DNA of 37,505 nucleotides from a virus (Duplodnaviria > Heunggongvirae > Uroviricota > Caudoviricetes). The position numbers and the translations under genes are program-made. Numbering within the stretch: position 1 is the first letter of the stretch; every line of letters begins with the position of its first letter. The notes under the pieces were generated by a model. The model was not told where the DNA came from. It made no database searches and was given only the letters and a program-made list of their open reading frames with translations. This document shows, piece after piece, positions 8,830-29,651 of the stretch. The DNA lies in the IMG/VR virus record IMGVR_UViG_2721755658_000003, one strand, 5' to 3'.

Positions 8830-10002
8830 TTACGCGCTGACCTGGCTGGAGAAATTCACCAGGTACTGATCGGTGATGCGCTGACGCAGCATCAGGTTTT
8901 CAAGTGGCGGCACTGGCGTGTAGTCGTAGTCGATGGTGAGTTTTCCGGCTTTCAGCGTGTCTTTGTCGTTCACCGACTCATCCAGCCAGCAATCACCACC
9001 AATGAGATAGCCCTGACTGACCAGGCTGCGCATTTTGGCGCGGATACCCTCGATAATGTCGCGGGCCAGCGACGGATTCAGCGGTTTATCCACCGCCCAC
9101 ATGTGCGCTTCTGCCATCGTGTCCGTCAGCACCTGCGCCGTGCGGGTGTAGTTTTCGAAGGCAAAGAGCGGGTCATCACTCAGGCAGCGGGAACCCCAGA
9201 AGCGAAAACCGTCTTTGCGGATAAGGGTGGTGACGTCGTTCTGGTTCAGCAGTCCCGCATCGGTTGCCGGGTCCTGCAGATCCCAGAACACATCAGCAGA
9301 AATTCCGGTGACACCGTTAACGCCCACGTTGGACAGGCTTTTGTGCCATCCGGTCTGCTCGTCAATTTTGGCGCGCAGACCAAGCGCACGGGCGGTGGCA
9401 TAAGCCGTTGCTTCGGCATTCAGCACCGTGTCCCAGCCAGTAAAGTCGGGCCAGATCAGCATTCCTTCACGCTGACTGAAGTTTTCACGGTAAGTGATTG
9501 CTTCCTGCACTGTCTTGCAACCATACGCTGACAGGTAAGCAAATCCACGCAGGCTTTGCGCCACGCTCAGCAACTCAGTAGCTACCGCCTTCGTGTCGTG
9601 ACCTGGCACGCCGAGAATGCGCGGTTTAACGCCGAGCTGTGACTGGGCAGATAACAGGGCTTTCATGCCTGTTTTTTTACCTTCAGCGGTCACTGCTCCG
9701 ATGATATTGGTCGTGGTTTCTTCTTCCGTTTCACCCTGCGGCACACGCACAACAACGGTCACGGGTTTTGCCTGGTCAGCGATGGCATCCAGCGAACGAG
9801 CCAGCGTGCCTGACTCACCCGCTTTACCGCTGGCAGTCAGCACATCAGTGATCAGCACGGGTTTATTAAGAGGAAACATTTTTGCATCGGCATCATCGCC
9901 CGTGCAGACCATACCCACGATGGCGGTGCTCACCGTGGTAATGGATCGGGTGCCTTCGTTGACTTCAACAACGCGCACCCCGTGGTGGTAATCCTGAGCC
10001 AT
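8830..10002 (-). CDS. tail sheath protein (gpFI)
   Basis: 390-aa ORF; P2 FI size and position. Confidence 0.85.
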
Positions 10003-10077
10003 AGTGGCGAACCTCCTGATTGGATTAGGCTTCGCCCTATGTTGAAGTGATTGTGCCTGACAAACAGCTAAGCGCAG

Positions 10078-10098
10078 TTGTACCGTTATTCACACAAA
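10078..10098 (-). promoter_or_regulatory. candidate Ogr-dependent late promoter element upstream of FI (P_F-like)
   Basis: TTGTACCGTTATTCACACAAA, a TGT-N12-ACA dyad ~85 bp upstream of the FI start; arms TTGTACCG / CACACAAA identical to the site at 24179-24199. Confidence 0.5.
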
Positions 10099-10144
10099 AT
10101 AACGGTATTTGTCCGCTTGCAGGAAAAATCAAAATAATGCTGAT

Positions 10145-10711
10145 TCAGGGCGATTCATTGCTCTCATTCGCCGGAAATTTTCTATAAATTGTGGAAACAC
10201 CTACATCAAAAATCAGTGCAATACGCTGTCTTGATTCTCCGGCCTCGAGTAAACGTCCAATCTGTGCCCACTGTTCGGTGGTCAACTTAGGACGGCGTCC
10301 ACCTACTCTGCCTTTGGCGCGAGCTGCAGCAAGCCCCGCCCTGGTACGTTCAACTATCAGTTCGCGCTCCATTTCAGCCAGGGCCCCCATGACATGAAAA
10401 AAGAAACGGCCCATTGGGGTACTGGTATCAATACTGTCAGTCAGGCTTCGGAAATTCACGCCACGCTGGCGCAGCTCTTCTATCAGCGTAACGAGATGCC
10501 GCATACTGCGCCCCAACCTGTCCAGCTTCCAGACAACCAGAGTGTCACCTGCCGATAATGTCCTGAGCAGTTTTTTCAGTCCCGGTCTGTCGGACTTAGT
10601 GCCACTGATTTTGTCCTCAAAAATCCGCTCACATCCCGCGCAGTTCAGTGCATTACGTTGCAAATCGGTGTTCTGGTCATTTGTTGACACGCGTACATAG
10701 CCAATAAGCAT
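10145..10711 (-). CDS. serine DNA invertase, Gin/Pin/Cin/Hin family
   Basis: N-terminus MLIGYVRVSTNDQNTDLQRNAL with catalytic Ser context and C-terminal HTH; very close to Mu Gin / e14 Pin by recall; adjacent to the inversion site. Confidence 0.9.
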   Translation of the reverse strand: MLIGYVRVSTNDQNTDLQRNALNCAGCERIFEDKISGTKSDRPGLKKLLRTLSAGDTLVVWKLDRLGRSMRHLVTLIEELRQRGVNFRSLTDSIDTSTPMGRFFFHVMGALAEMERELIVERTRAGLAAARAKGRVGGRRPKLTTEQWAQIGRLLEAGESRQRIALIFDVGVSTIYRKFPANESNESP

Positions 10712-10766
10712 GATCAATCCCCTGAATAAAAACCGGGGATGATGCCAGTTAGCCGTTATCTCTGCA

Positions 10767-10792
10767 TTTTCATAAACGTTGGTTTGGGAGAA
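10767..10792. repeat. inversion crossover site 1 (gix/cix-like 26-bp site)
   Basis: TTTTCATAAACGTTGGTTTGGGAGAA; its 3' 13 bp TGGTTTGGGAGAA are an exact inverted repeat of 12679-12691, and it matches the reverse complement of 12679-12704 at 20 of 26 positions. Confidence 0.65.
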
Positions 10793-11152
10793 GCAGCGAA
10801 ACGGGGTGTGGGAACAGGGGAAAATCAGATACCGGACATGGCTTCTTTTGCCAGTGGTGATGGGTGGATGAAATTACCCAACGGGAAAATCCTGCAATAT
10901 GGTCGTGGTGCGGTTACGCCGACATTATCGACGCAAACAATGAGAATTACATTCAGCATCCCTTTTCCTAAAAAAGTGGACTGCGCCATGCTTACTCATT
11001 CTGGTGATGGTGGTGCGCCTTTAGGTGCTGGGCGGGGATTCGTGATGACCGCAGAAGGCCCAACATTAACCGGTTTTAATTCCGCTTACAGAACTGCATC
11101 AACCAGTTCCACAGTATCGATGAATTACAGTTGGTGGGCTGTTGGTGAGTAA
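10779..11152 (+). CDS. silent alternative tail-fibre C-terminal segment (Sv'-like); no own N-terminus in this orientation
   Basis: Plus-strand ORF begins at the crossover site and encodes the same GLGE junction peptide as H; would fuse to the constant part of H after inversion. Confidence 0.5.
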
Positions 11153-11163
11153 TTTTATTCAGG

Positions 11164-11616
11164 GTGATTTATATGAACGAATATGTTTATAGCGCAAGGC
11201 ATAATGCTTTTTTCCCTGTGGATATGATTGATAAATATAAATCAGAGGGATGGGATTTATCAGACGCTAAGGAAGTAAATCAAAATATTATCAGTGAGTT
11301 TATGGCTGAACCGCCACAAGGAAAAATCCGTATTGCCGGAGATGATGGGCTGCCTGCGTGGGCAGATATTCCTCCACCCACGCATGAAGAACTTATTGAA
11401 ATTACTGAATCAGAAAGACAGCTACTAATTAACCAAGCCAACGAATACATGAACAGTAAGCAATGGCCCGGTAAAGCCGCTATTGGTCGTCTGAAAGATG
11501 ATGAACTGGCGCAATATAATTTGTGGCTGGATTATCTGGACGCACTGGAACTGGTTGATTCCTCCAGTGCGCCAGATATTGAATGGCCTACGCCTCCGGC
11601 AGTTCAGGCCAGATGA
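11164..11616 (+). CDS. alternative tail fibre assembly protein (U'-like)
   Basis: 150-aa ORF inside the invertible segment, convergent with and overlapping the 3' end of the minus-strand assembly gene; true start may be the Met at 11173. Confidence 0.7.
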   Translation: MIYMNEYVYSARHNAFFPVDMIDKYKSEGWDLSDAKEVNQNIISEFMAEPPQGKIRIAGDDGLPAWADIPPPTHEELIEITESERQLLINQANEYMNSKQWPGKAAIGRLKDDELAQYNLWLDYLDALELVDSSSAPDIEWPTPPAVQAR

Positions 11617-12190
11617 CATCCGGCGCGGTGCTGGTATCTGTTGCCGTCACCGCGTCAATGTAATCCAGCACAGCGTTAAGTCGGGTGGTTTCTGCCTGCG
11701 TCAGCTTCCGTCCGGCCTGTAGTTTCAGTTGAATCAGACTGATGGAAGCCATTGCTGCATCAATCAGTGACTGGCGCAGTGCTTCTGCCGCGTCTACTGC
11801 GGCATTATGCTGTGCCTCAGTATCTGTCACCCATTTCTCACCATCCCATTCATCGTATGGCGTTAACGGGGCAATAGTGGTCGTATTTTCAGGATAATCA
11901 CCCGGACCTGTGATTTCTTTCGATTCTCCTGTTTCGGTGCTATAAACGTTTTCACCGCGATGGTCTGGCACATATTCCCATGAGTTAAAATCTGCAGAAC
12001 GGCAAATTGCATAACCAGCTTTATATGAGCCAGGAGCATCTAAACAGGAATATGCAGGGATACCGACACCCACAGCAAGATATTCAGTTGATGCAGAAAT
12101 ATACTCCCGTGTTTCACCATCATAGTTATAGACAGTAATATTCCCCGCCTTCGTGGCAATAAGCTCGCCATTTAATACAGCGTTATCCAT
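11588..12190 (-). CDS. tail fibre assembly protein (gpG-like), active orientation
   Basis: 200-aa ORF immediately downstream of H with 1-nt overlap. Confidence 0.8.
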   Translation of the reverse strand: MDNAVLNGELIATKAGNITVYNYDGETREYISASTEYLAVGVGIPAYSCLDAPGSYKAGYAICRSADFNSWEYVPDHRGENVYSTETGESKEITGPGDYPENTTTIAPLTPYDEWDGEKWVTDTEAQHNAAVDAAEALRQSLIDAAMASISLIQLKLQAGRKLTQAETTRLNAVLDYIDAVTATDTSTAPDVIWPELPEA

Positions 12191-13740
12191 TATGCAGCCC
12201 TCACGATATAGTTAAATGCAATATTCCGTGGACGAGTTTCATTTATCCCATATGCTGTTGTTCTCTGATTCCCGACAAAATATCCATTTGGATTCGAAGA
12301 TACAGAGTAATCATCAAAATCAAGTGGACTATCAGCGCCCGGAGTCAGACTGGCAATATATCCTCTACCCATAACTTCTGATGCTGGTATTTCTTTTGTA
12401 CGATAATCACTGACTCTGAATATCTGCCCCTGATGAGTATGTAATTCTACCCCTCCATTCTGAATACTTAGCAGCGTACGTTCTGCATCAATGCCGCGCC
12501 CATCATCCCAGCCACGAATGAACTCACCACGTAAATCAGGCAATTTATTTGTCGGGTAAGCCTTTGCCAGTTCCGGGTATTCTTCAGCAGAAAAAGCCGC
12601 ACCGTTGCATTTCAGCCAGCCTGTTGGCGGAGTGGCGGAAGGCCACGGAACAGGAACACCAACGGGTAATGCCGAACCTTCTCCCAAACCAAGGTATGCG
12701 AGAAGACCAGCAACATCCTTTCCACTCAAATTGGTAAGCGTATTGTCCAGCGGTTGTTTACCTGCCAGCGCATTAAGCATTGTCGTGGCAAAGTTCGGAT
12801 CATTCCCCAGTGCCGCCGCCAGTTCGTTCAGTGTATCCAGTGCCGCAGGTGCAGAACCCACCATTGCTGCAATCGCTGATTTCACAAAAGCTGTAGTGGC
12901 AATCTGTGTATTGTTGACCGACTGTGCCGCAGTAGGTGCTGTTGGCGTTCCGGTGAGTGCCGGACTCGACAGCGGTGCTTTTAGTGCCAGCGCATTGTTA
13001 ATGGTGATACTGAATTTCGGGTCATTGTTAATGGCTGCGGCAATTTCTTTCAGTGTGTCCAGCGTGGCTGGCGCACCGTTAATCAGAGCAGTAATAGCGG
13101 CCTGAACAAACTCAGTGGTCGCAATCCGCGTGGTGTTATTTCCTGCTGCAGGCGTCGGCGCTTTTGGTTCTCCGGTAAATGTCGGATTATGTTTCTGCGC
13201 ATACTGGGTATGAGGATCTTGTGCGGCAATGTGGTTTCTCATCTGGTCATCCACATACAGCTTTAATTCCAGGACTTCATCATCCACGTATTTACGGGTT
13301 GCCAGCACTACAGCAGGGTCGATTTTCAGGGTGATATTGTCCGTACTGCTGGTAATCAGCACCATGCGCACGGTCTGGGTACGCCCGCTGCCTTCAGCCA
13401 GTTGCGGCTTATAGCTTTCCGGGCAGTTGCCCACGGCAATCAATGCCCCGGATTCATCAAACAGGCCTACTTCACGTATCCACCAACCACCCTCGTTTTC
13501 AGGGATCACCTGTTCAGCAATAATCTGACTGCTATTCTGCGGGTCGATATAGAGCATATTCAGCGCAGCCCGGCGTTTCTCATTTACCAGTGCCGTCTGC
13601 TTTGCGTCCGGCGCTGGCAATGTTCCGCCGCCATCGCCGACCGCCATATGGGTAATTTTTACAGGCACACCGAGCGCGGCGGCGCTGGCAAGTTTCGCCG
13701 CGCCAATATCCGTCAGCAGGGTATAAAATTTTGTGCTCAT
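12190..13740 (-). CDS. tail fibre protein (gpH-like)
   Basis: 516-aa ORF; conserved N-terminal region resembling P2 H and repeated tail-fibre motifs (NDPNFATTMLNALAGKQP); C-terminal third lies inside the invertible segment. Confidence 0.85.
   Translation of the reverse strand: MSTKFYTLLTDIGAAKLASAAALGVPVKITHMAVGDGGGTLPAPDAKQTALVNEKRRAALNMLYIDPQNSSQIIAEQVIPENEGGWWIREVGLFDESGALIAVGNCPESYKPQLAEGSGRTQTVRMVLITSSTDNITLKIDPAVVLATRKYVDDEVLELKLYVDDQMRNHIAAQDPHTQYAQKHNPTFTGEPKAPTPAAGNNTTRIATTEFVQAAITALINGAPATLDTLKEIAAAINNDPKFSITINNALALKAPLSSPALTGTPTAPTAAQSVNNTQIATTAFVKSAIAAMVGSAPAALDTLNELAAALGNDPNFATTMLNALAGKQPLDNTLTNLSGKDVAGLLAYLGLGEGSALPVGVPVPWPSATPPTGWLKCNGAAFSAEEYPELAKAYPTNKLPDLRGEFIRGWDDGRGIDAERTLLSIQNGGVELHTHQGQIFRVSDYRTKEIPASEVMGRGYIASLTPGADSPLDFDDYSVSSNPNGYFVGNQRTTAYGINETRPRNIAFNYIVRAA
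12679..12704. repeat. inversion crossover site 2 (gix/cix-like), inside tail fibre gene H
   Basis: TTCTCCCAAACCAAGGTATGCGAGAA, itself an imperfect dyad; inverted repeat of site 1; encodes AYLGLGEG in the H frame. Confidence 0.65.
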
Positions 13741-14342
13741 GGATTCACTCTCATTGTGTCAATAACATGGACCGCCCCGCCTTCATGCGCGGTGCCGCTG
13801 GAAATAATTGTTTCGTTGATATACGGATAGATCGTGATTTCTTCGCCAAGATAACTGGCGGCTCCCACCCAATGCGGGCCGCTGGTCTGCAGATTGATGG
13901 ACATGCCGATCATGTGACGGCTGCATGGTTTGGCATCGCTTATCAGCCGCTCAAGTTCCAGATAGGTATCTTCAGTGATGCCCTGGTCCTGCACACCAAT
14001 GTCCAGGCGAAACGTGCCCGGTGTTTCTCCGGTCTGCCACCACTCAATAATGCGGATCAGGAAGCCGAACGGCTCCACCACCCGCCGCACAGCACTGGTG
14101 GTTCCTTTATGCTGATGTATATAAAAAGCATCCTTTACCACCTGGCGTTTGACGCTTTCCGTCCAGCCCTCGTCCCATCGATCCACAGAGAACGCCCAGG
14201 CGAGATAAGGCAGGAAACTGACCGGACATGTTGCCGGATCCCACAAGTCACGCAGCGGCACCTGCAAATCAGAAATTCCGCTGCAGGTTTGCGCCAGTCG
14301 GCGCTCCAGTGGCGTTGAACCCGGTGGTAGCAGACTATTCAT
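13737..14342 (-). CDS. baseplate assembly protein (gpI-like)
   Basis: 201-aa ORF with N-terminus LLPPGSTPLERRLAQ resembling P2 I. Confidence 0.8.
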   Translation of the reverse strand: MNSLLPPGSTPLERRLAQTCSGISDLQVPLRDLWDPATCPVSFLPYLAWAFSVDRWDEGWTESVKRQVVKDAFYIHQHKGTTSAVRRVVEPFGFLIRIIEWWQTGETPGTFRLDIGVQDQGITEDTYLELERLISDAKPCSRHMIGMSINLQTSGPHWVGAASYLGEEITIYPYINETIISSGTAHEGGAVHVIDTMRVNP

Positions 14343-16384: not shown

Positions 16385-16418
16385 TTGACACAAAAGATGT
16401 TTATTGACAATATATAAG
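16385..16418 (+). promoter_or_regulatory. putative sigma70 promoter of the accessory gene
   Basis: TTGACA at 16385-16390 and a second TTGACA at 16404-16409 followed by TATATAAG; AT-rich region just upstream of the RBS AGGAG (16431-16435). Confidence 0.35.
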
Positions 16419-16442
16419 TTCAATCTAACAAGGAGAAAAATT

Positions 16443-18218
16443 ATGCCAAATGAAAATCTTGATATTGACTCAAGGACTACCGAGCAATTATACGAATGGT
16501 ATTTGCAAGGAAATTTGATAGTCAATAGACGTTATCAAAGGAAACTTGTATGGTCTCTAGAAGAAAAGACTTCTTTAATATCTTCTATGCTGCAACAATA
16601 TCCTATTCCGTTATTATTATTTGTTACCATCAATGAACAAAGAGAAATATTGGATGGAATGCAAAGATTAGAAGCAATTATGAGCTTCATCGAACAGAGA
16701 TTTTCATTAGATGGACAATATTTTGATTTGGACTCTATAGCTTTAACAAAACAACTTAAAGATAATGGAACTTTAATTCAGAAAGAACCAATCCTTTCCC
16801 GTGATTCTTCAGCAATTATTGCACGTTATCGATTTGCAATATCAGAATATAGCTCCACAAATGAAAATATTGACGAAGTATTCAGACGAATAAACTCAAA
16901 CGGGAAGATTTTATCCAAACAAGAATTACGTAGTGCAGGAACAGTTAGTAACTTCTCTGAACTGGTCAGATCGATATCAACATCGATCAGAGGTGATACT
17001 AGCCATTCTGACATTATGAATCTCCAGCAAATGCACAAAATTTCAATCAGTAACGATAGATTGGAGTACGGGGTAAATATCGATAACCACTTTTATATAA
17101 AACATCATATTTTAACAAGACGAAGTATTCGTGATTCTGATGACGAGGAATTGATAGCCAATATCCTTGCATATATCAGTCTAGAAGAAAAACCCACATC
17201 TGGGTCAACTTCTCTCGACACATTCTATGGTCAAGGAAACTCCTCTCATGCTCATGGTGTCAGACAGCAATTAGAGTCTTTCATTCAAACCAATAACGCT
17301 GCCACTATTAAGCAGAATTTCATAGCTGTATATGAATTAATTACAAGCCTATATGACGGAAAAAATGATACTTTTAGAAGCCATATTTTAGGGGAGGATA
17401 ATTCATCTCAAGAATGCCCTCGTTATTATCAAGCTGTGTTTTTGTCTATTTATGAACTTCTTTTCAACCAAAATATGCAATTAATTGATAAAGAAGGTTT
17501 ATTCTCGCAATTAAAAAACACTGGCAATACCATAATTATGGTTACCGATGGTGGCCGCTGGGCTGCAAGCACTCGTGAAAAAAGTGTTAATGATCTTGTT
17601 GCATTAATAAGTCGTTACTTCCAACCTGCTCCTCAAAAGTATGTGAATCATGCTTGGGTAACTGAAATTCGCAATCTATTAACAAATTCTAGAACTGAAC
17701 AACCAAGTTATGATTTCAAACAAGGGTTCTTTAATTTATCAGGTAAAAATGAATTTGATGATGAATGTTTAAAAGGAATATTACAAACTTGCGTAGCAAT
17801 AAATAATATTGGAAAAAGCGCAAAAGGCTATATTTTAGTTGGTATTGCCGAAAATAAATTAACCGCAGATAGAATTCAACATTTATATGGAGTAAATTCA
17901 ATTGAGTTCAATGGGTTCTATATAAACGGAATTGATCATGAAGCAATGTTAGTCTCTGGTAGCATTGATGATTACTTTATGTTAATAAAACAAAAAATAC
18001 AAGGATACAATTTCACTGAAACTCTAAAACAGCAGATACTTAAGAATATTGAGTTTTGCTCTTACAATGGCTTACACATACTCAAGATAACTATTCAGAG
18101 CACAGGTCAAATTTGCGACTTTGAGAATATGTTTTATATCAGACAAGGCTCATCGACTGATCCAGTTACGGATACACAAAACATCTCAGCTCTATTTAAC
18201 TCTTACATGAACAGCTAA
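16443..18218 (+). CDS. accessory protein: DUF262 (ParB-like/GmrS N-terminal) domain fused to an AlbA_2/Schlafen-like C-terminal domain; candidate anti-phage defence protein
   Basis: ATG at 16443 with SD AGGAG 7 nt upstream (ORF track uses an upstream TTG at 16404); N-terminal motif RRYQRKLVWSLEEK...DGMQRLEAI typical of DUF262; C-terminal DFKQG...ILQTCVAINNIGKSAKGYILVGIAENK resembles the AlbA_2 core; AT-rich, opposite strand to flanking tail genes. Confidence 0.7.
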   Translation: MPNENLDIDSRTTEQLYEWYLQGNLIVNRRYQRKLVWSLEEKTSLISSMLQQYPIPLLLFVTINEQREILDGMQRLEAIMSFIEQRFSLDGQYFDLDSIALTKQLKDNGTLIQKEPILSRDSSAIIARYRFAISEYSSTNENIDEVFRRINSNGKILSKQELRSAGTVSNFSELVRSISTSIRGDTSHSDIMNLQQMHKISISNDRLEYGVNIDNHFYIKHHILTRRSIRDSDDEELIANILAYISLEEKPTSGSTSLDTFYGQGNSSHAHGVRQQLESFIQTNNAATIKQNFIAVYELITSLYDGKNDTFRSHILGEDNSSQECPRYYQAVFLSIYELLFNQNMQLIDKEGLFSQLKNTGNTIIMVTDGGRWAASTREKSVNDLVALISRYFQPAPQKYVNHAWVTEIRNLLTNSRTEQPSYDFKQGFFNLSGKNEFDDECLKGILQTCVAINNIGKSAKGYILVGIAENKLTADRIQHLYGVNSIEFNGFYINGIDHEAMLVSGSIDDYFMLIKQKIQGYNFTETLKQQILKNIEFCSYNGLHILKITIQSTGQICDFENMFYIRQGSSTDPVTDTQNISALFNSYMNS

Positions 18219-27072: not shown

Positions 27073-28512
27073 TCATTTTATAGAATCAAGGTTATCGGCG
27101 TTCATCATACTTTCAAAACCAGTTCCCATACGTCCATATCTAACCCCTGAATTATGCATACTCTGAGCGCCGGCCTTAACCTTCAATTTGATCTCTTGCG
27201 CTGACGCTATCCCAGCAATCATTGCTAAATATTCAAAATACTTATGCTGTGTCGCTCTTAAAAATAGTTCAGGTCTATAATTATAACTCGCATAATAAAT
27301 AGTGCATGGATACCAATAGACACCATCATTACAAAATGAATAAAAAAGAACTAGCACATCAGCCTGCATAAGATCAGAAAAGGTAATATCTTCCCTATCT
27401 GCATTTCTTTTAATTAGCTCTGCAACTGGAGAGTAATACCTTATATCTTCTTCAAAACCTGCCTGTAGCGTTTCAGAATCAGCTAAGAAAGCGCTAATTG
27501 ACACGAGTCTATGTTCCGGTGGTAACTGCCTATCACCAGAAAGGAATCTGGCAGATAAAATCGCACGTACTAATTGAAACTTCTCTAATCTAATCAATAT
27601 AGCAACTGAATATAAGAAAATTTCGTATGCAAATACCTTTTGTGCATCATACCAGTTTAATTGCCATGAACTGACATCGCTAGGAGCTTCGGTTAGTAAC
27701 AGAACTTTTTCAAAGAACTTTACTAGTTCTGTTGAAAATTCATCCTGCATCGTAAACTCTGCCTCAAGAGTTATCCATTCACACACATAATCCCTGATAG
27801 GCTTCATGGCAGCAACGTCGCTAATTATTTTCCTACCCATGCTTTGCAAATCATTTTGCTCTGGGCGAGCTCGGATTCTCATCCCGTCAAGGTACTTGAC
27901 TACTGAATCAACGAAATCACGCCGATAATAACTAACACCTGCCCTATTTTGCAAAACAGCTTGTTTCAAGCTATTAAATTTTGCGTGTGGTTCACTCACC
28001 GGATCATATTGCCCACTATCTAAATAACTGGGTCTTTTTCCAAGCTTAGGTTTTATATCTGCTGGTTTTCCATTAAGCAGCCTTACTAACCGTTCCCAAT
28101 TTTGATTTTCTTTTTCTGGTGTTGAAAGGTCAATCCATATTAACGAACTCATAAAAACAGGAAGACAAGGTTCTGAATTCTCATCAAATTCACAAACAAT
28201 AGGTATAAATTTTGATTGTTCGACTTTTGTGTAGACTTGTTGAGAGATGATCTGGGATTCTGTGCCAACCCCACTTTGTTTGTTATCAGCTTTTTTTGCG
28301 TAAACTGAATCACACATCACAAGCACATTGGTGATACTTTTATCAACAATCATTTTTTCCATGAATGCGTTTTTATCATTGCCCTCCTTCAAATCATATA
28401 TGTCAATGACAACATCCACTCCATCACTCAAAAGTCTATCAGCTATTGCTTTAACTCTTTCCTTATGAGCTGGGCTACTCCAACTATATGATATAAAAAC
28501 TTTTGGCGTCAT
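27073..28512 (-). CDS. accessory protein with N-terminal SEFIR/TIR-like domain and uncharacterised C-terminal region; candidate defence protein
   Basis: N-terminus MTPKVFISYSWSSPAHKERVKAIADRLLSDGVDVVIDIYDL matches the SEFIR/TIR_2 signature; AT-rich; lies between cos and the portal gene. Confidence 0.65.
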   Translation of the reverse strand: MTPKVFISYSWSSPAHKERVKAIADRLLSDGVDVVIDIYDLKEGNDKNAFMEKMIVDKSITNVLVMCDSVYAKKADNKQSGVGTESQIISQQVYTKVEQSKFIPIVCEFDENSEPCLPVFMSSLIWIDLSTPEKENQNWERLVRLLNGKPADIKPKLGKRPSYLDSGQYDPVSEPHAKFNSLKQAVLQNRAGVSYYRRDFVDSVVKYLDGMRIRARPEQNDLQSMGRKIISDVAAMKPIRDYVCEWITLEAEFTMQDEFSTELVKFFEKVLLLTEAPSDVSSWQLNWYDAQKVFAYEIFLYSVAILIRLEKFQLVRAILSARFLSGDRQLPPEHRLVSISAFLADSETLQAGFEEDIRYYSPVAELIKRNADREDITFSDLMQADVLVLFYSFCNDGVYWYPCTIYYASYNYRPELFLRATQHKYFEYLAMIAGIASAQEIKLKVKAGAQSMHNSGVRYGRMGTGFESMMNADNLDSIK

Positions 28513-28915: not shown

Positions 28916-29593
28916 CTAGAACGTGACAGCCTTGTCAAAGCCAGAAATAATTGTATAAGAAATAGACGAGTTATCAGCCTTGTTCACTTTGAACTTGGCA
29001 CCTTTGTAAGCGATAACGTCACTTCCCTTAGAATCTACAGAAAAATCTGTTGTAAATGCTGCACGAGCCATATCGTTTGCAAATTCACGATAGGTGAACT
29101 TCATTACACCGCCTGCATTTCCATTGTATTCGATAGTCTTAACCAATGAGTTACTAACTCGACACAGCCCATCAGGAACACGTTTGATAGAAATTTCTGA
29201 TGCAGTATAAGAAGTACCATTTGGCGGTGATATCTCATTTTTTGCAGCATCGTAACTAACATAATCAACATAGTTACCGATTTGCCCATAGAGATTTTTT
29301 AACGCAACAGCTTGAGGGTTATGATAATTGCGGTAAATTCCATTCCCCTCACTGCAATATGTACCAGCAGCGATAGAAGACAATGCACCATTAGCCGCAC
29401 CAAGTTCTAGTACGTCCGTTTTAAATCCAGTAGCAGATGTGATAATGGGATCGCCCATGTAGGCGGTAGCACTTTGCCCAATAGCAGGCTTCACCACTTC
29501 AATAGCAGTGATATTTCGGTTAGAAGCATGTGGCACGCAACCAGTTAGGATTACAGCAAGAGATATTGGTAACGCTACATTATTAATTTTCAT
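28916..29593 (-). CDS. accessory lipoprotein of unknown function
   Basis: Start at MKINNVALPISLAVILTGC (ATG 29593) giving signal peptide plus lipobox LTGC; C-terminal aromatic residue; AT-rich. Confidence 0.6.
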   Translation of the reverse strand: MKINNVALPISLAVILTGCVPHASNRNITAIEVVKPAIGQSATAYMGDPIITSATGFKTDVLELGAANGALSSIAAGTYCSEGNGIYRNYHNPQAVALKNLYGQIGNYVDYVSYDAAKNEISPPNGTSYTASEISIKRVPDGLCRVSNSLVKTIEYNGNAGGVMKFTYREFANDMARAAFTTDFSVDSKGSDVIAYKGAKFKVNKADNSSISYTIISGFDKAVTF

Positions 29594-29616
29594 TTTTAGC
29601 CTATTATTCTTTTCTT

Positions 29617-29651
29617 GACAAAAAACAAGGCGATATCTGATTGACATCGCC
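29617..29651 (-). terminator. rho-independent terminator after the DinI-like gene
   Basis: Minus-strand hairpin GGCGATGTC...GATATCGCC followed by TTGTTTTTTG. Confidence 0.45.

What the first reader, a model, noticed from the sequence alone, without database searches (positions are those of the whole stretch)
10145..12704. Gin/Pin-type invertase and invertible tail-fibre segment occupying the P2 Z/fun position
A serine invertase gene lies next to a ~1.9-kb segment bounded by 26-bp gix-like sites in inverted orientation (10767-10792 and 12679-12704), whose 13-bp arms TGGTTTGGGAGAA are exact inverted repeats. Site 2 lies inside tail-fibre gene H; the segment carries the current H C-terminus plus assembly gene on the minus strand and a silent alternative C-terminus plus assembly gene on the plus strand. 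Both junctions encode the same GLGE peptide, so inversion would swap the receptor-binding tip in frame, as in the Mu G and P1 C segments. Classical P2 has no such switch, and the module replaces the Z/fun accessory locus between G and FI.
Basis: seen in the sequence. Interest (0 to 1): 0.55.

Follow-up and report, generated by a model that had tools for sequence, protein, structure and literature searches.

The report
Known invertible tail-fibre switch in P2-like prophage
A P2-like prophage of Escherichia carries a Gin-type DNA invertase and a flippable 1.9-kb DNA segment that swaps the receptor-binding tip of its tail fibre; the reading is correct, but this module is common and already annotated in this phage family, so it is ordinary.

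Summary
An intact 188-aa serine invertase (75% identical to Mu Gin, 79% to P1 Cin, 99.5% to the annotated invertase of phage Cartapus) lies beside a 1,914-bp segment. The segment is bounded by two 26-bp gix-like sites that share a perfect 15-nt inverted arm. One site lies inside tail-fibre gene H. The segment holds two convergent cassettes, each a fibre tip plus a chaperone gene, and flipping it in silico gives an in-frame alternative H. Homologous modules do switch. Among 5,426 complete E. coli genomes, 177 are colinear with the window's orientation and 141 with the flipped one. Two sibling wastewater isolates are identical over 6.8 kb except for an exact inversion at the same 15-nt arms. Phage pro483 carries the same cassette pair in the flipped state. 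All four cassette genes show purifying selection. The position matches fun(Z) of P2. None of this is new: Fels-2 fin, the P2-like prophages of EPEC E2348/69 and a 2024 hotspot survey describe it, and many Peduoviridae records annotate it. Verdict: real, almost certainly functional, already known, low interest.

The parts
10145..10711 (-). DNA invertase gene (188 aa, Gin/Cin/Pin/Hin family), transcribed away from the invertible segment, as gin is in Mu
   Evidence: Pfam Resolvase and HTH_7. Matches the PDB Gin chains 3uj3/4m6f at E=1e-92, residues 1-184 without gaps. 75.1% aa identity to Mu Gin; Ser9, Arg42, K46/K47/R50 and Q150/R153/L154 are all present. 99.5% identical to the phage Cartapus 'DNA-invertase' and 79.1% to P1 Cin.
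10627..10690 (-). Candidate recombinational enhancer (two G-N13-C Fis-like 15-mers at gene nt 22-36 and 71-85); inferred, not shown
   Evidence: The same two 15-mer positions are conserved in Mu gin. The first lies about 95 bp from the crossover centre in both, which fits the ~100 bp reported for hin. Their spacing here is 49 bp against 47 bp reported for hin. This stretch is 76.6% identical to Mu at the nucleotide level against 65% for the next 215 nt, but it also encodes the conserved catalytic N-terminus.
10767..10792 (.). Crossover site next to the invertase (positional equivalent of Mu gixR): TTTTCATAAACG-TT-GGTTTGGGAGAA
   Evidence: It aligns column for column with Mu gixR upstream of gin. 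The inversion breakpoint seen in the sibling isolates falls here.
10781..11152 (+). Silent alternative H C-terminal tip (123 aa from GLGE; Gp53-like_C domain), with no start or promoter of its own
   Evidence: Pfam PF21882, 3.1e-13. 97.6% identical to the C-terminus of the expressed tail protein ORF31 of phage pro483. Omega 0.105 against pro483.
11173..11616 (+). Silent alternative tail-fibre assembly (chaperone) gene
   Evidence: Pfam Caudo_TAP, 7.4e-31. Omega 0.156 against pro483.
11588..12190 (-). Currently expressed tail-fibre assembly gene (P2 G equivalent); overlaps the convergent silent chaperone gene by 29 nt
   Evidence: Pfam Caudo_TAP, 2.3e-31. Annotated tfaE in relatives.
12190..12690 (-). 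Currently expressed variable C-terminal tip of H (166 aa from GLGE; tail Collar domain)
   Evidence: Pfam Collar, 2.8e-15. tblastn finds collar-type tail fibres in 1,126 phage records.
12679..12704 (.). Crossover site inside gene H: TTCTCCCAAACC-AA-GGTATGCGAGAA
   Evidence: The reciprocal breakpoint in the sibling isolates falls here. pro483 has the same site.
12691..13740 (-). Constant N-terminal part of tail-fibre gene H (350 aa), outside the invertible segment and driven by the fixed late operon
   Evidence: Pfam Phage_tail_fib, residues 1-150, 3.8e-65. GLGE begins at residue 351.
8830..10002 (-). Tail sheath gene FI, the flank that fixes this as the P2 G-FI (fun(Z)) interval
   Evidence: Pfam Phage_sheath_1 and Phage_sheath_1C. 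P2 gene order is H-G-fun(Z)-FI.

Best explanation
This is a two-state host-range switch of the Mu G / P1 C type, built into the tail-fibre operon of a P2/186-like (Peduoviridae) prophage of Escherichia.

The late operon transcribes a fixed 350-aa N-terminal part of H. Transcription then crosses a 26-bp crossover site into a 1,914-bp invertible segment. The segment holds two convergent cassettes, each made of a receptor-binding tip and its own assembly chaperone.

The adjacent Gin-family serine invertase binds the two inverted sites and cuts at the identical, non-palindromic 2-bp cores (TT/AA). It rotates one half of the synapse by 180 degrees and religates. This most likely happens on a Fis-bound enhancer inside the 5' end of its own gene.

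The result is that either the collar-type tip with chaperone 11588-12190, or the Gp53-like tip with chaperone 11173-11616, is fused in frame at the GLGE codons. A lysogen population would therefore release particles of two receptor specificities.

Shown here: the anatomy, the in-frame fusion, an intact invertase with its family-specific residues, and real switching at these same sites in homologous prophages. Inferred: switching in this particular lysogen, Fis/enhancer dependence, and a change of host range.
For: Anatomy and domains. In-frame alternative H after the in-silico flip.

Invertase: E=1e-92 to the Gin crystal-structure sequences, no gaps over residues 1-184, catalytic Ser9 present. 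The residues described as unique to Fis/enhancer-dependent invertases are conserved.

Sites: half-sites TTCTCCCAAACC, TTTTCATAAACG and TTCTCGCATACC resemble the Mu gix half-sites TTATCCAAAACC and TTCCTGTAAACC. The site sits at the same distance upstream of the invertase gene as gixR.

Population evidence: 177 E. coli genomes are colinear with the native orientation and 141 with the flipped one. Isolates SW071611 and SW071619 are identical over 6,761 nt except for an exact reverse-complement of 1,845 nt flanked by the 15-nt arm TTGGTTTGGGAGAAG.

Phage pro483 carries the same cassette pair (94% nt identity) in the flipped state, with the window's silent tip fused to H. Omega is 0.10-0.18 for the three cassette genes that could be measured, whichever one is silent.

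Literature: phase variation was shown experimentally in P2-like prophages of EPEC (PMC4272514). Fels-2 tail-fibre inversion is attributed to fin (PMC7953296).
Against: There are no reads or second assembly of the source strain, so switching in this lysogen is not shown. The closest complete-genome relatives of this region are only about 96% identical.

The enhancer is only a candidate. The two Fis-like 15-mers are 49 bp apart, against 47 bp reported for hin, and their conservation is confounded with coding constraint.

The orientation counts are not phylogenetically independent. No host-range data exist for either tip.
Confidence: 0.9

Rival explanations
1. Frozen relic. The module descends from a working switch, but in this lysogen it no longer flips, for example because the invertase is not expressed or the enhancer is impaired. 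In that case only the collar-type tip is ever made.
For: No direct evidence of switching exists for this exact sequence. The candidate Fis-site spacing differs by 2 bp from that reported for hin. No convincing sigma-70 promoter was found upstream of the invertase; promoter-like hits in the region match the number expected from shuffles.
Against: The invertase ORF is intact and all checked functional residues are present. Both crossover sites have perfect inner arms and identical cores. Invertase and sites match those of prophages that demonstrably switched. The silent cassette is intact and under purifying selection.
Confidence: 0.07
2. The orientation differences among genomes come from RecA-dependent homologous recombination between the inverted repeats, or from assembly artefacts, and not from the invertase.
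For: Inverted repeats can in principle recombine by general recombination. Assemblers can pick either orientation of a repeat-bounded segment.
Against: The shared perfect identity is only 15 nt, which from general knowledge is below the roughly 20-30 bp usually needed for efficient RecA recombination. The breakpoints coincide with gix-like sites placed exactly as in Mu, next to a Gin homologue. If an assembler chose between orientations, both must have been present in the reads, which itself implies switching. The near-even 177:141 split across many independent assemblies fits frequent site-specific flipping.
Confidence: 0.02
3. Benefit to the lysogen rather than, or in addition to, phage host range. 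In the lysogen the inversion would produce a fibre-tip protein that masks a surface receptor and blocks superinfecting phages, as reported for PinQ and StfE2 of e14. Alternatively, the invertase acts in trans on other prophage segments.
For: PinQ-driven inversion of the e14 P segment creates StfE2, which blocks T2 adsorption (PMC12529663). The locus lies in a known cargo and defence hotspot of P2-like phages. From general knowledge, invertases of this family are known to cross-complement.
Against: H lies in a late operon that is normally silent in a lysogen. The prophage looks complete, with all structural genes intact, so the ordinary virion role is sufficient. The invertase has no PADLOC match. 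Nothing here tests expression in the lysogen.
Confidence: 0.05

Closest known systems
Mu G segment with Gin (and D108)
   Same: The layout is the same: constant fibre N-terminus, crossover site, two convergent tip-plus-chaperone cassettes, second crossover site, then the invertase transcribed away from the segment. The invertase is 75% identical to Gin. The site lies at the same distance upstream of the gene, with similar 12-bp half-sites.
   Different: The host element is a P2-like myovirus, not a transposable phage. The segment is 1.9 kb against about 3 kb. The tips show no detectable BLASTP similarity to Mu S or S'. The core dinucleotide is AA/TT against GA/TC in gix.
P1 C segment with Cin (and p15B Min, e14 P/Pin)
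   Same: Same invertase family (79.1% identity to Cin), and the same logic of swapping tail-fibre C-termini in frame.
   Different: This is a simple two-site system, not a multi-site shufflon like Min; only two sites are present in the window. Comparison with cix and pix sites was not made here.
Fels-2 fin and its invertible tail-fibre segment (P2-like prophage of Salmonella LT2/LT7)
   Same: A P2-like prophage with a Pin/Hin-family invertase adjoining an invertible tail-fibre region. [quoted passage not shown]
   Different: The host genus differs. Sequence identity to Fels-2 was not measured here.
Invertible loci in the two P2-like prophages of EPEC E2348/69 (Goldberg et al. 2014)
   Same: Phase variation by inversion was shown experimentally in clonal cultures inside P2-like prophages. 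One of the two is a simple two-variant switch like this one (PMC4272514).
   Different: The second EPEC locus has three inverted repeats and four variants; this window has two sites. Identity to those loci was not measured.
Annotated Peduoviridae phages with the same module (pro483, 500465-1, Cartapus, KP12, Kp48xx-2, 'P2' of O157:H43 T22)
   Same: Same gene order: sheath, invertase, [tip', tfa' | tfa, tip], H. Nucleotide identity is 89-94% over the region. The invertase is up to 99.5% identical. pro483 has the same cassette pair, flipped.
   Different: Only allelic differences. For example, the C-terminal half of the collar tip is mosaic (60.8% identity to the Omnitron copy; the pro483 copy is 3 codons shorter).

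Membership tests
Fis/enhancer-dependent DNA invertases (Gin/Cin/Pin/Hin subclass of small serine recombinases) | Protein of about 190 aa with an N-terminal resolvase catalytic domain and a C-terminal HTH DNA-binding domain | tested here: met
   Pfam Resolvase, residues 5-137, and HTH_7, residues 140-183. Full-length gap-free alignment to Gin 3uj3/4m6f, E=1e-92.
Fis/enhancer-dependent DNA invertases (Gin/Cin/Pin/Hin subclass of small serine recombinases) | Catalytic serine (Gin Ser9 / Hin Ser10) and the conserved Arg (Hin Arg43) | tested here: met
   Ser9 and Arg42 are present. The role of Arg43 is taken from PMC3798978.
Fis/enhancer-dependent DNA invertases (Gin/Cin/Pin/Hin subclass of small serine recombinases) | Residues unique to the invertase subclass: basic helix-B residues (Hin 47, 48, 51) and the DNA-binding-domain helix-1 Fis-contact patch (Hin Gln151, Arg154, Leu155) | tested here: met
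   The definition comes from PMC3798978. The window protein has K46, K47, R50, Q150, R153 and L154 in Gin numbering, which is Hin numbering minus 1.
Fis/enhancer-dependent DNA invertases (Gin/Cin/Pin/Hin subclass of small serine recombinases) | Two 26-bp crossover sites in inverted orientation, each with two imperfect 12-bp half-sites around a 2-bp core, and with identical cores in the two sites | tested here: met
   10767-10792 reads TTTTCATAAACG-TT-GGTTTGGGAGAA. The reverse complement of 12679-12704 reads TTCTCGCATACC-TT-GGTTTGGGAGAA. Compare Mu gixL and gixR.
Fis/enhancer-dependent DNA invertases (Gin/Cin/Pin/Hin subclass of small serine recombinases) | A cis-acting recombinational enhancer with two Fis sites, located in the 5' part of the invertase gene about 100 bp from the nearest crossover site | tested here: inconclusive
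   Two G-N13-C 15-mers are conserved in position with Mu gin. The first is 95 bp from the crossover centre and they are 49 bp apart. hin is reported as about 100 bp and 47 bp. The conservation is confounded with coding constraint. No Fis-binding model was available.
Fis/enhancer-dependent DNA invertases (Gin/Cin/Pin/Hin subclass of small serine recombinases) | Catalyses inversion of the segment between the sites in vivo | not testable with these tools
   This cannot be tested for the window itself because there are no reads. It holds for homologous modules with identical inner arms and a near-identical invertase: both orientations occur in 177 and 141 genomes, and sibling isolates differ by an exact inversion.
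Invertible phage tail-fibre host-range segments (Mu G, P1 C, e14 P, Fels-2) | Constant N-terminal fibre part outside the segment, alternative C-terminal parts inside it, and in-frame fusion in both orientations | tested here: met
   The native H is 516 aa. The in-silico flipped H reads through GLGE into the Gp53-like tip and ends at a stop. The flipped form is annotated as an intact 1,404-nt gene in SW071619 and as ORF31 in pro483.
Invertible phage tail-fibre host-range segments (Mu G, P1 C, e14 P, Fels-2) | Each alternative tip is followed by its own tail-fibre assembly chaperone gene | tested here: met
   Two Caudo_TAP genes, 11588-12190 (-) and 11173-11616 (+), only 36% identical over 78 aligned residues.
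Invertible phage tail-fibre host-range segments (Mu G, P1 C, e14 P, Fels-2) | The two orientations give different receptor specificity or host range | not testable with these tools
   The tips belong to unrelated domain families, Collar and Gp53-like_C, which suggests different receptors. This is an inference only.
Multi-site shufflon-type tail-fibre inversion systems (p15B Min; three-repeat locus of an EPEC P2-like prophage) | Three or more crossover sites giving more than two arrangements | tested here: not met
   Only two matches to the 15-nt arm in the whole window, even with up to 3 mismatches allowed.
Cargo of the P2 fun(Z) hotspot (between G and FI) | Located between the tail-fibre assembly gene and the sheath gene FI, where P2 carries fun(Z) | tested here: met
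   P2 order is H, G, terminator, fun(Z), pF, FI. Window order is H, tfa, [tfa', tip'], invertase, FI. A DNA invertase is 'often' seen at this locus in P2-like phages (bioRxiv 10.1101/2024.10.15.618418).

The most novel reading that the evidence does not exclude
The switch may serve more than the virion. In the lysogen, one orientation could yield a fibre-tip product that masks a surface receptor against superinfecting phages, as reported for PinQ and StfE2 of e14. Alternatively, this invertase could drive inversion of other prophage segments in the same chromosome in trans. The evidence here does not address expression in the lysogen or trans targets, so neither reading is excluded.
Probability: 0.05. 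Interest if true: 0.4.

Novelty: already known. Interest (0 to 1): 0.12.

Why it matters
For annotating this prophage, the 'hypothetical protein' ORF at 10739-11152 is really a silent tail-fibre tip, and H has two alternative products. Any host-range or receptor prediction for this phage must consider both tips. Assemblies may report either orientation.

Beyond that, the case adds nothing new. Invertible fibre segments are textbook for Mu and P1. They are documented in P2-like prophages (Fels-2, EPEC E2348/69) and are annotated in dozens of Peduoviridae genomes.

One by-product may be useful. About 6% of complete E. coli genomes carry this cassette pair, split roughly 56:44 between orientations, and there is a clean pair of sibling isolates that differ only by the inversion.

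Tried and rejected
(1) Homology of the two tips to Mu S, Mu S' and the P2 H C-terminus: no significant BLASTP match. The tips come from other tip families, so the 'Mu-like' label applies to mechanism only. One search failed because of a frame error and was repeated.

(2) A shufflon with extra crossover sites: none found in the window.

(3) NCBIfam naming of the five proteins: only sub-threshold hits to other serine recombinases and nothing for the fibre genes. The invertase has no PADLOC match.

(4) Calling the Fis enhancer from sequence: only candidate G-N13-C 15-mers, with spacing 2 bp off the published hin value. Left as inconclusive.

(5) Promoter and terminator scan: the number of hits matches the shuffles. 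One weak hairpin is recorded under Noticed in passing.

(6) The first chance test for the inverted repeat was flawed, because overlapping palindromes inflated the shuffle counts. It was redone with separated arms.

(7) The paper on Fin of Fels-2 (PMC1347348) is not held, so PMC7953296 was used instead.

(8) Some fetched loci (L003, L005, L007) were not available to scripts. The comparisons were done with L002/L004 and with the alignment tools.

(9) The exact source genome was not found. The best complete E. coli genomes are about 96-97% identical over 25 kb.


Full report
WHAT IS THERE. The window is a P2/186-like (Peduoviridae) prophage inserted next to ybjL in an Escherichia chromosome. It has a CI repressor, an integrase and a full set of P2-type structural genes. 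On the minus strand the order is V-W-J-I-H, then a tail-fibre assembly gene, then (after the invertible segment) a serine recombinase gene, then the sheath gene FI.

The recombinase ORF is 10145-10717, and the likely ATG start is at 10711. It has the Resolvase and HTH_7 domains.

The repeat finder reports one outstanding inverted repeat, 10767-10793 with 12678-12704, 27 nt at 81% complementarity. Its inner 15 nt, TTGGTTTGGGAGAAG, are perfect.

Written as 26-bp sites, the two are TTTTCATAAACG-TT-GGTTTGGGAGAA and, in reverse complement, TTCTCGCATACC-TT-GGTTTGGGAGAA. A separated perfect inverted repeat of 15 nt or more appears in about 1% of shuffles of this 4-kb region (one search was a flawed first attempt). 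The repeat alone is suggestive; the context makes it decisive.

ANATOMY OF THE SEGMENT. The right-hand site lies inside H (12190-13740, minus strand). H has the Phage_tail_fib N-terminal domain and a Collar domain in the part encoded within the segment. GLGE, the peptide encoded by the conserved arm, begins at residue 351.

Inside the segment, the minus strand holds the last 166 codons of H and a Caudo_TAP chaperone gene (11588-12190). The plus strand holds a 123-codon Gp53-like_C tip (10781-11152). The mechanical ORF for this tip starts at 10739 only because it runs across the site. The plus strand also holds a second Caudo_TAP gene (11173-11616).

The two chaperone genes converge and overlap by 29 nt. 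They are only 36% identical over 78 aligned residues, and the two tips are unrelated. Reverse-complementing 10779-12692 in silico gives an uninterrupted alternative H that ends ...WWAVGE*. Only two copies of the arm exist in the window, so this is a two-state switch and not a shufflon.

THE ENZYME. The protein aligns over residues 1-184, without gaps, to the two Gin crystal-structure sequences (E about 1e-92). It is 75.1% identical to Mu Gin and 79.1% identical to P1 Cin. It is 98-99.5% identical to proteins annotated 'DNA invertase' in Peduoviridae phages Cartapus, KP12 and Kp48xx-2.

It keeps Ser9 and Arg42. It also keeps the residues that McLean et al. (PMC3798978) describe as conserved only in Fis/enhancer-dependent invertases. 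These are basic helix-B residues 46, 47 and 50 and the Q150/R153/L154 Fis-contact patch, in Gin numbering.

The DNA upstream aligns with Mu, so that the invertase-proximal site falls on gixR at the same distance from the start codon. The half-sites resemble those of gixL and gixR.

Two Fis-like G-N13-C 15-mers lie at gene nt 22-36 and 71-85, the same positions as in Mu gin. The first is about 95 bp from the crossover centre. This fits the hin enhancer layout of about 100 bp, with centres 47 bp apart, but the spacing here is 49 bp and the region also encodes the conserved N-terminus. I treat the enhancer as inferred.

DOES IT FLIP? No reads are available for the source strain, so I tested homologous modules. 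The native 4.8-kb region (9500-14300) is matched colinearly, at 80% coverage or more, in 177 of 5,426 complete E. coli genomes. The in-silico flipped version is matched colinearly in 141 genomes. The segment makes up 40% of the query, so 80% colinear coverage requires the matching orientation.

Among the hits, strains SW071611, SW071619 and SW07163 come from the same wastewater source and their chromosomes differ in length by 1-2 bp. They carry the prophage at the same position but in opposite orientations. Over 6,761 nt, SW071611 and SW071619 are identical except for a 1,845-nt stretch that is an exact reverse complement. That stretch is flanked by the same perfect 15-nt arm as in the window.

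Phage pro483, of the genus Peduovirus like P2 itself, carries the same cassette pair at 94% nucleotide identity in the flipped state. There the window's silent tip is fused to H as ORF31, the collar tip is silent, and an invertase sits next to the sheath gene.

Nei-Gojobori comparison of the window with pro483 gives omega of 0.105 for the Gp53-like tip and 0.156 and 0.175 for the two chaperone genes. The collar tips differ in length, so that pair could not be measured. The silent cassette is therefore maintained as a coding gene (the counts are small).

POSITION RELATIVE TO P2. In the P2 reference the order is H, G, terminator, fun(Z) on the opposite strand, the pF promoter and FI, with no invertase.

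It is not a new observation. A 2024 preprint on hyper-variability hotspots states that a DNA invertase is often encoded at this P2-like locus, accompanied by inversion of the adjacent genes. Goldberg et al. 2014 showed phase variation experimentally in two P2-like prophages of EPEC E2348/69, one of them a simple two-variant switch. The Fels-2 prophage of Salmonella has the fin invertase next to an invertible tail-fibre region that differs in orientation between LT2 and LT7. Phage records such as 500465-1 (genus Wadgaonvirus) annotate the identical gene order.

RIVALS. A frozen relic cannot be excluded without reads. Against it, the ORF, both sites and the silent cassette are all intact, and they match modules that have switched.

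General recombination is unlikely with only 15 nt of identity, and it would not explain the gix-like placement. An assembly artefact would itself imply that the reads contained both orientations.

A benefit to the lysogen, such as receptor masking as reported for PinQ/StfE2 of e14, or trans-action on other prophage segments, is possible. Nothing here supports it.

COMPARISON AND VERDICT. The module works like the Mu G/Gin and P1 C/Cin systems. It meets every sequence-level criterion I could test for the Gin/Cin/Pin/Hin invertase family and for invertible tail-fibre segments. The enhancer remains inconclusive, and the biochemistry and host range are untestable here. The tips are not homologues of Mu S/S' or of the P2 H tip; they come from the wider pool of exchangeable fibre tips.

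It is an already known, widely annotated feature of P2-like prophages. Interest is low.

Noticed in passing
window 16404-18218 (+): A 604-aa protein with GmrSD_N and Schlafen AlbA_2 domains. Its best PADLOC matches are NsnA (2.9e-23) and PD-T4-2_A. It lies on the opposite strand between baseplate gene V and the tail-completion genes. The sibling prophage in SW071611/SW071619 carries a 'P-loop ATPase, Sll1717 family' gene at the same spot, so this looks like a further cargo or defence hotspot.
   Followed up: partly
window 27073-28512 (-) and 28916-29647 (-): A bSEFIR-type defence gene (PADLOC 1.9e-104; Pfam SEFIR and TIR_2), followed by a 243-aa ORF with no family match. Both lie in the old/tin position between the portal gene and replication gene A. 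The SW0716xx relative has a TIR-domain gene plus a hypothetical gene there.
   Followed up: partly
window 10731-10750 (-): A weak terminator-like hairpin (6 pairs followed by TTTATT) between the invertase-proximal crossover site and the invertase start codon, conserved in relatives. It could insulate the invertase gene from read-through out of the late fibre operon. The scan found no more terminator-like sites than in shuffles, so this is only a lead.
   Followed up: no
window 12190-12690 (-) compared with L008 4915-5445 (-): The collar-type tip is itself mosaic. Its first ~70 residues after GLGE are nearly identical to the silent collar tip of pro483, after which the sequences diverge and differ in length by 3 codons. 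Identity to the Omnitron copy is 60.8% overall. This suggests recombination within tips as well as cassette swapping.
   Followed up: partly
L002 (NZ_CM129855 3560874-3567634) and L004 (NZ_CM129853 3540875-3587635): Wastewater isolates SW071611, SW071619 and SW07163 from Galapagos have chromosomes within 2 bp of each other in length and differ in the orientation of this prophage segment. They are a ready-made natural pair for studying switching.
   Followed up: yes
window 10739-11152 (+): RefSeq annotates the equivalent ORF in relatives as a free-standing 'hypothetical protein' or 'tail fiber protein' that starts upstream of the crossover site. This is an annotation artefact of a promoterless silent cassette.
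   Followed up: partly
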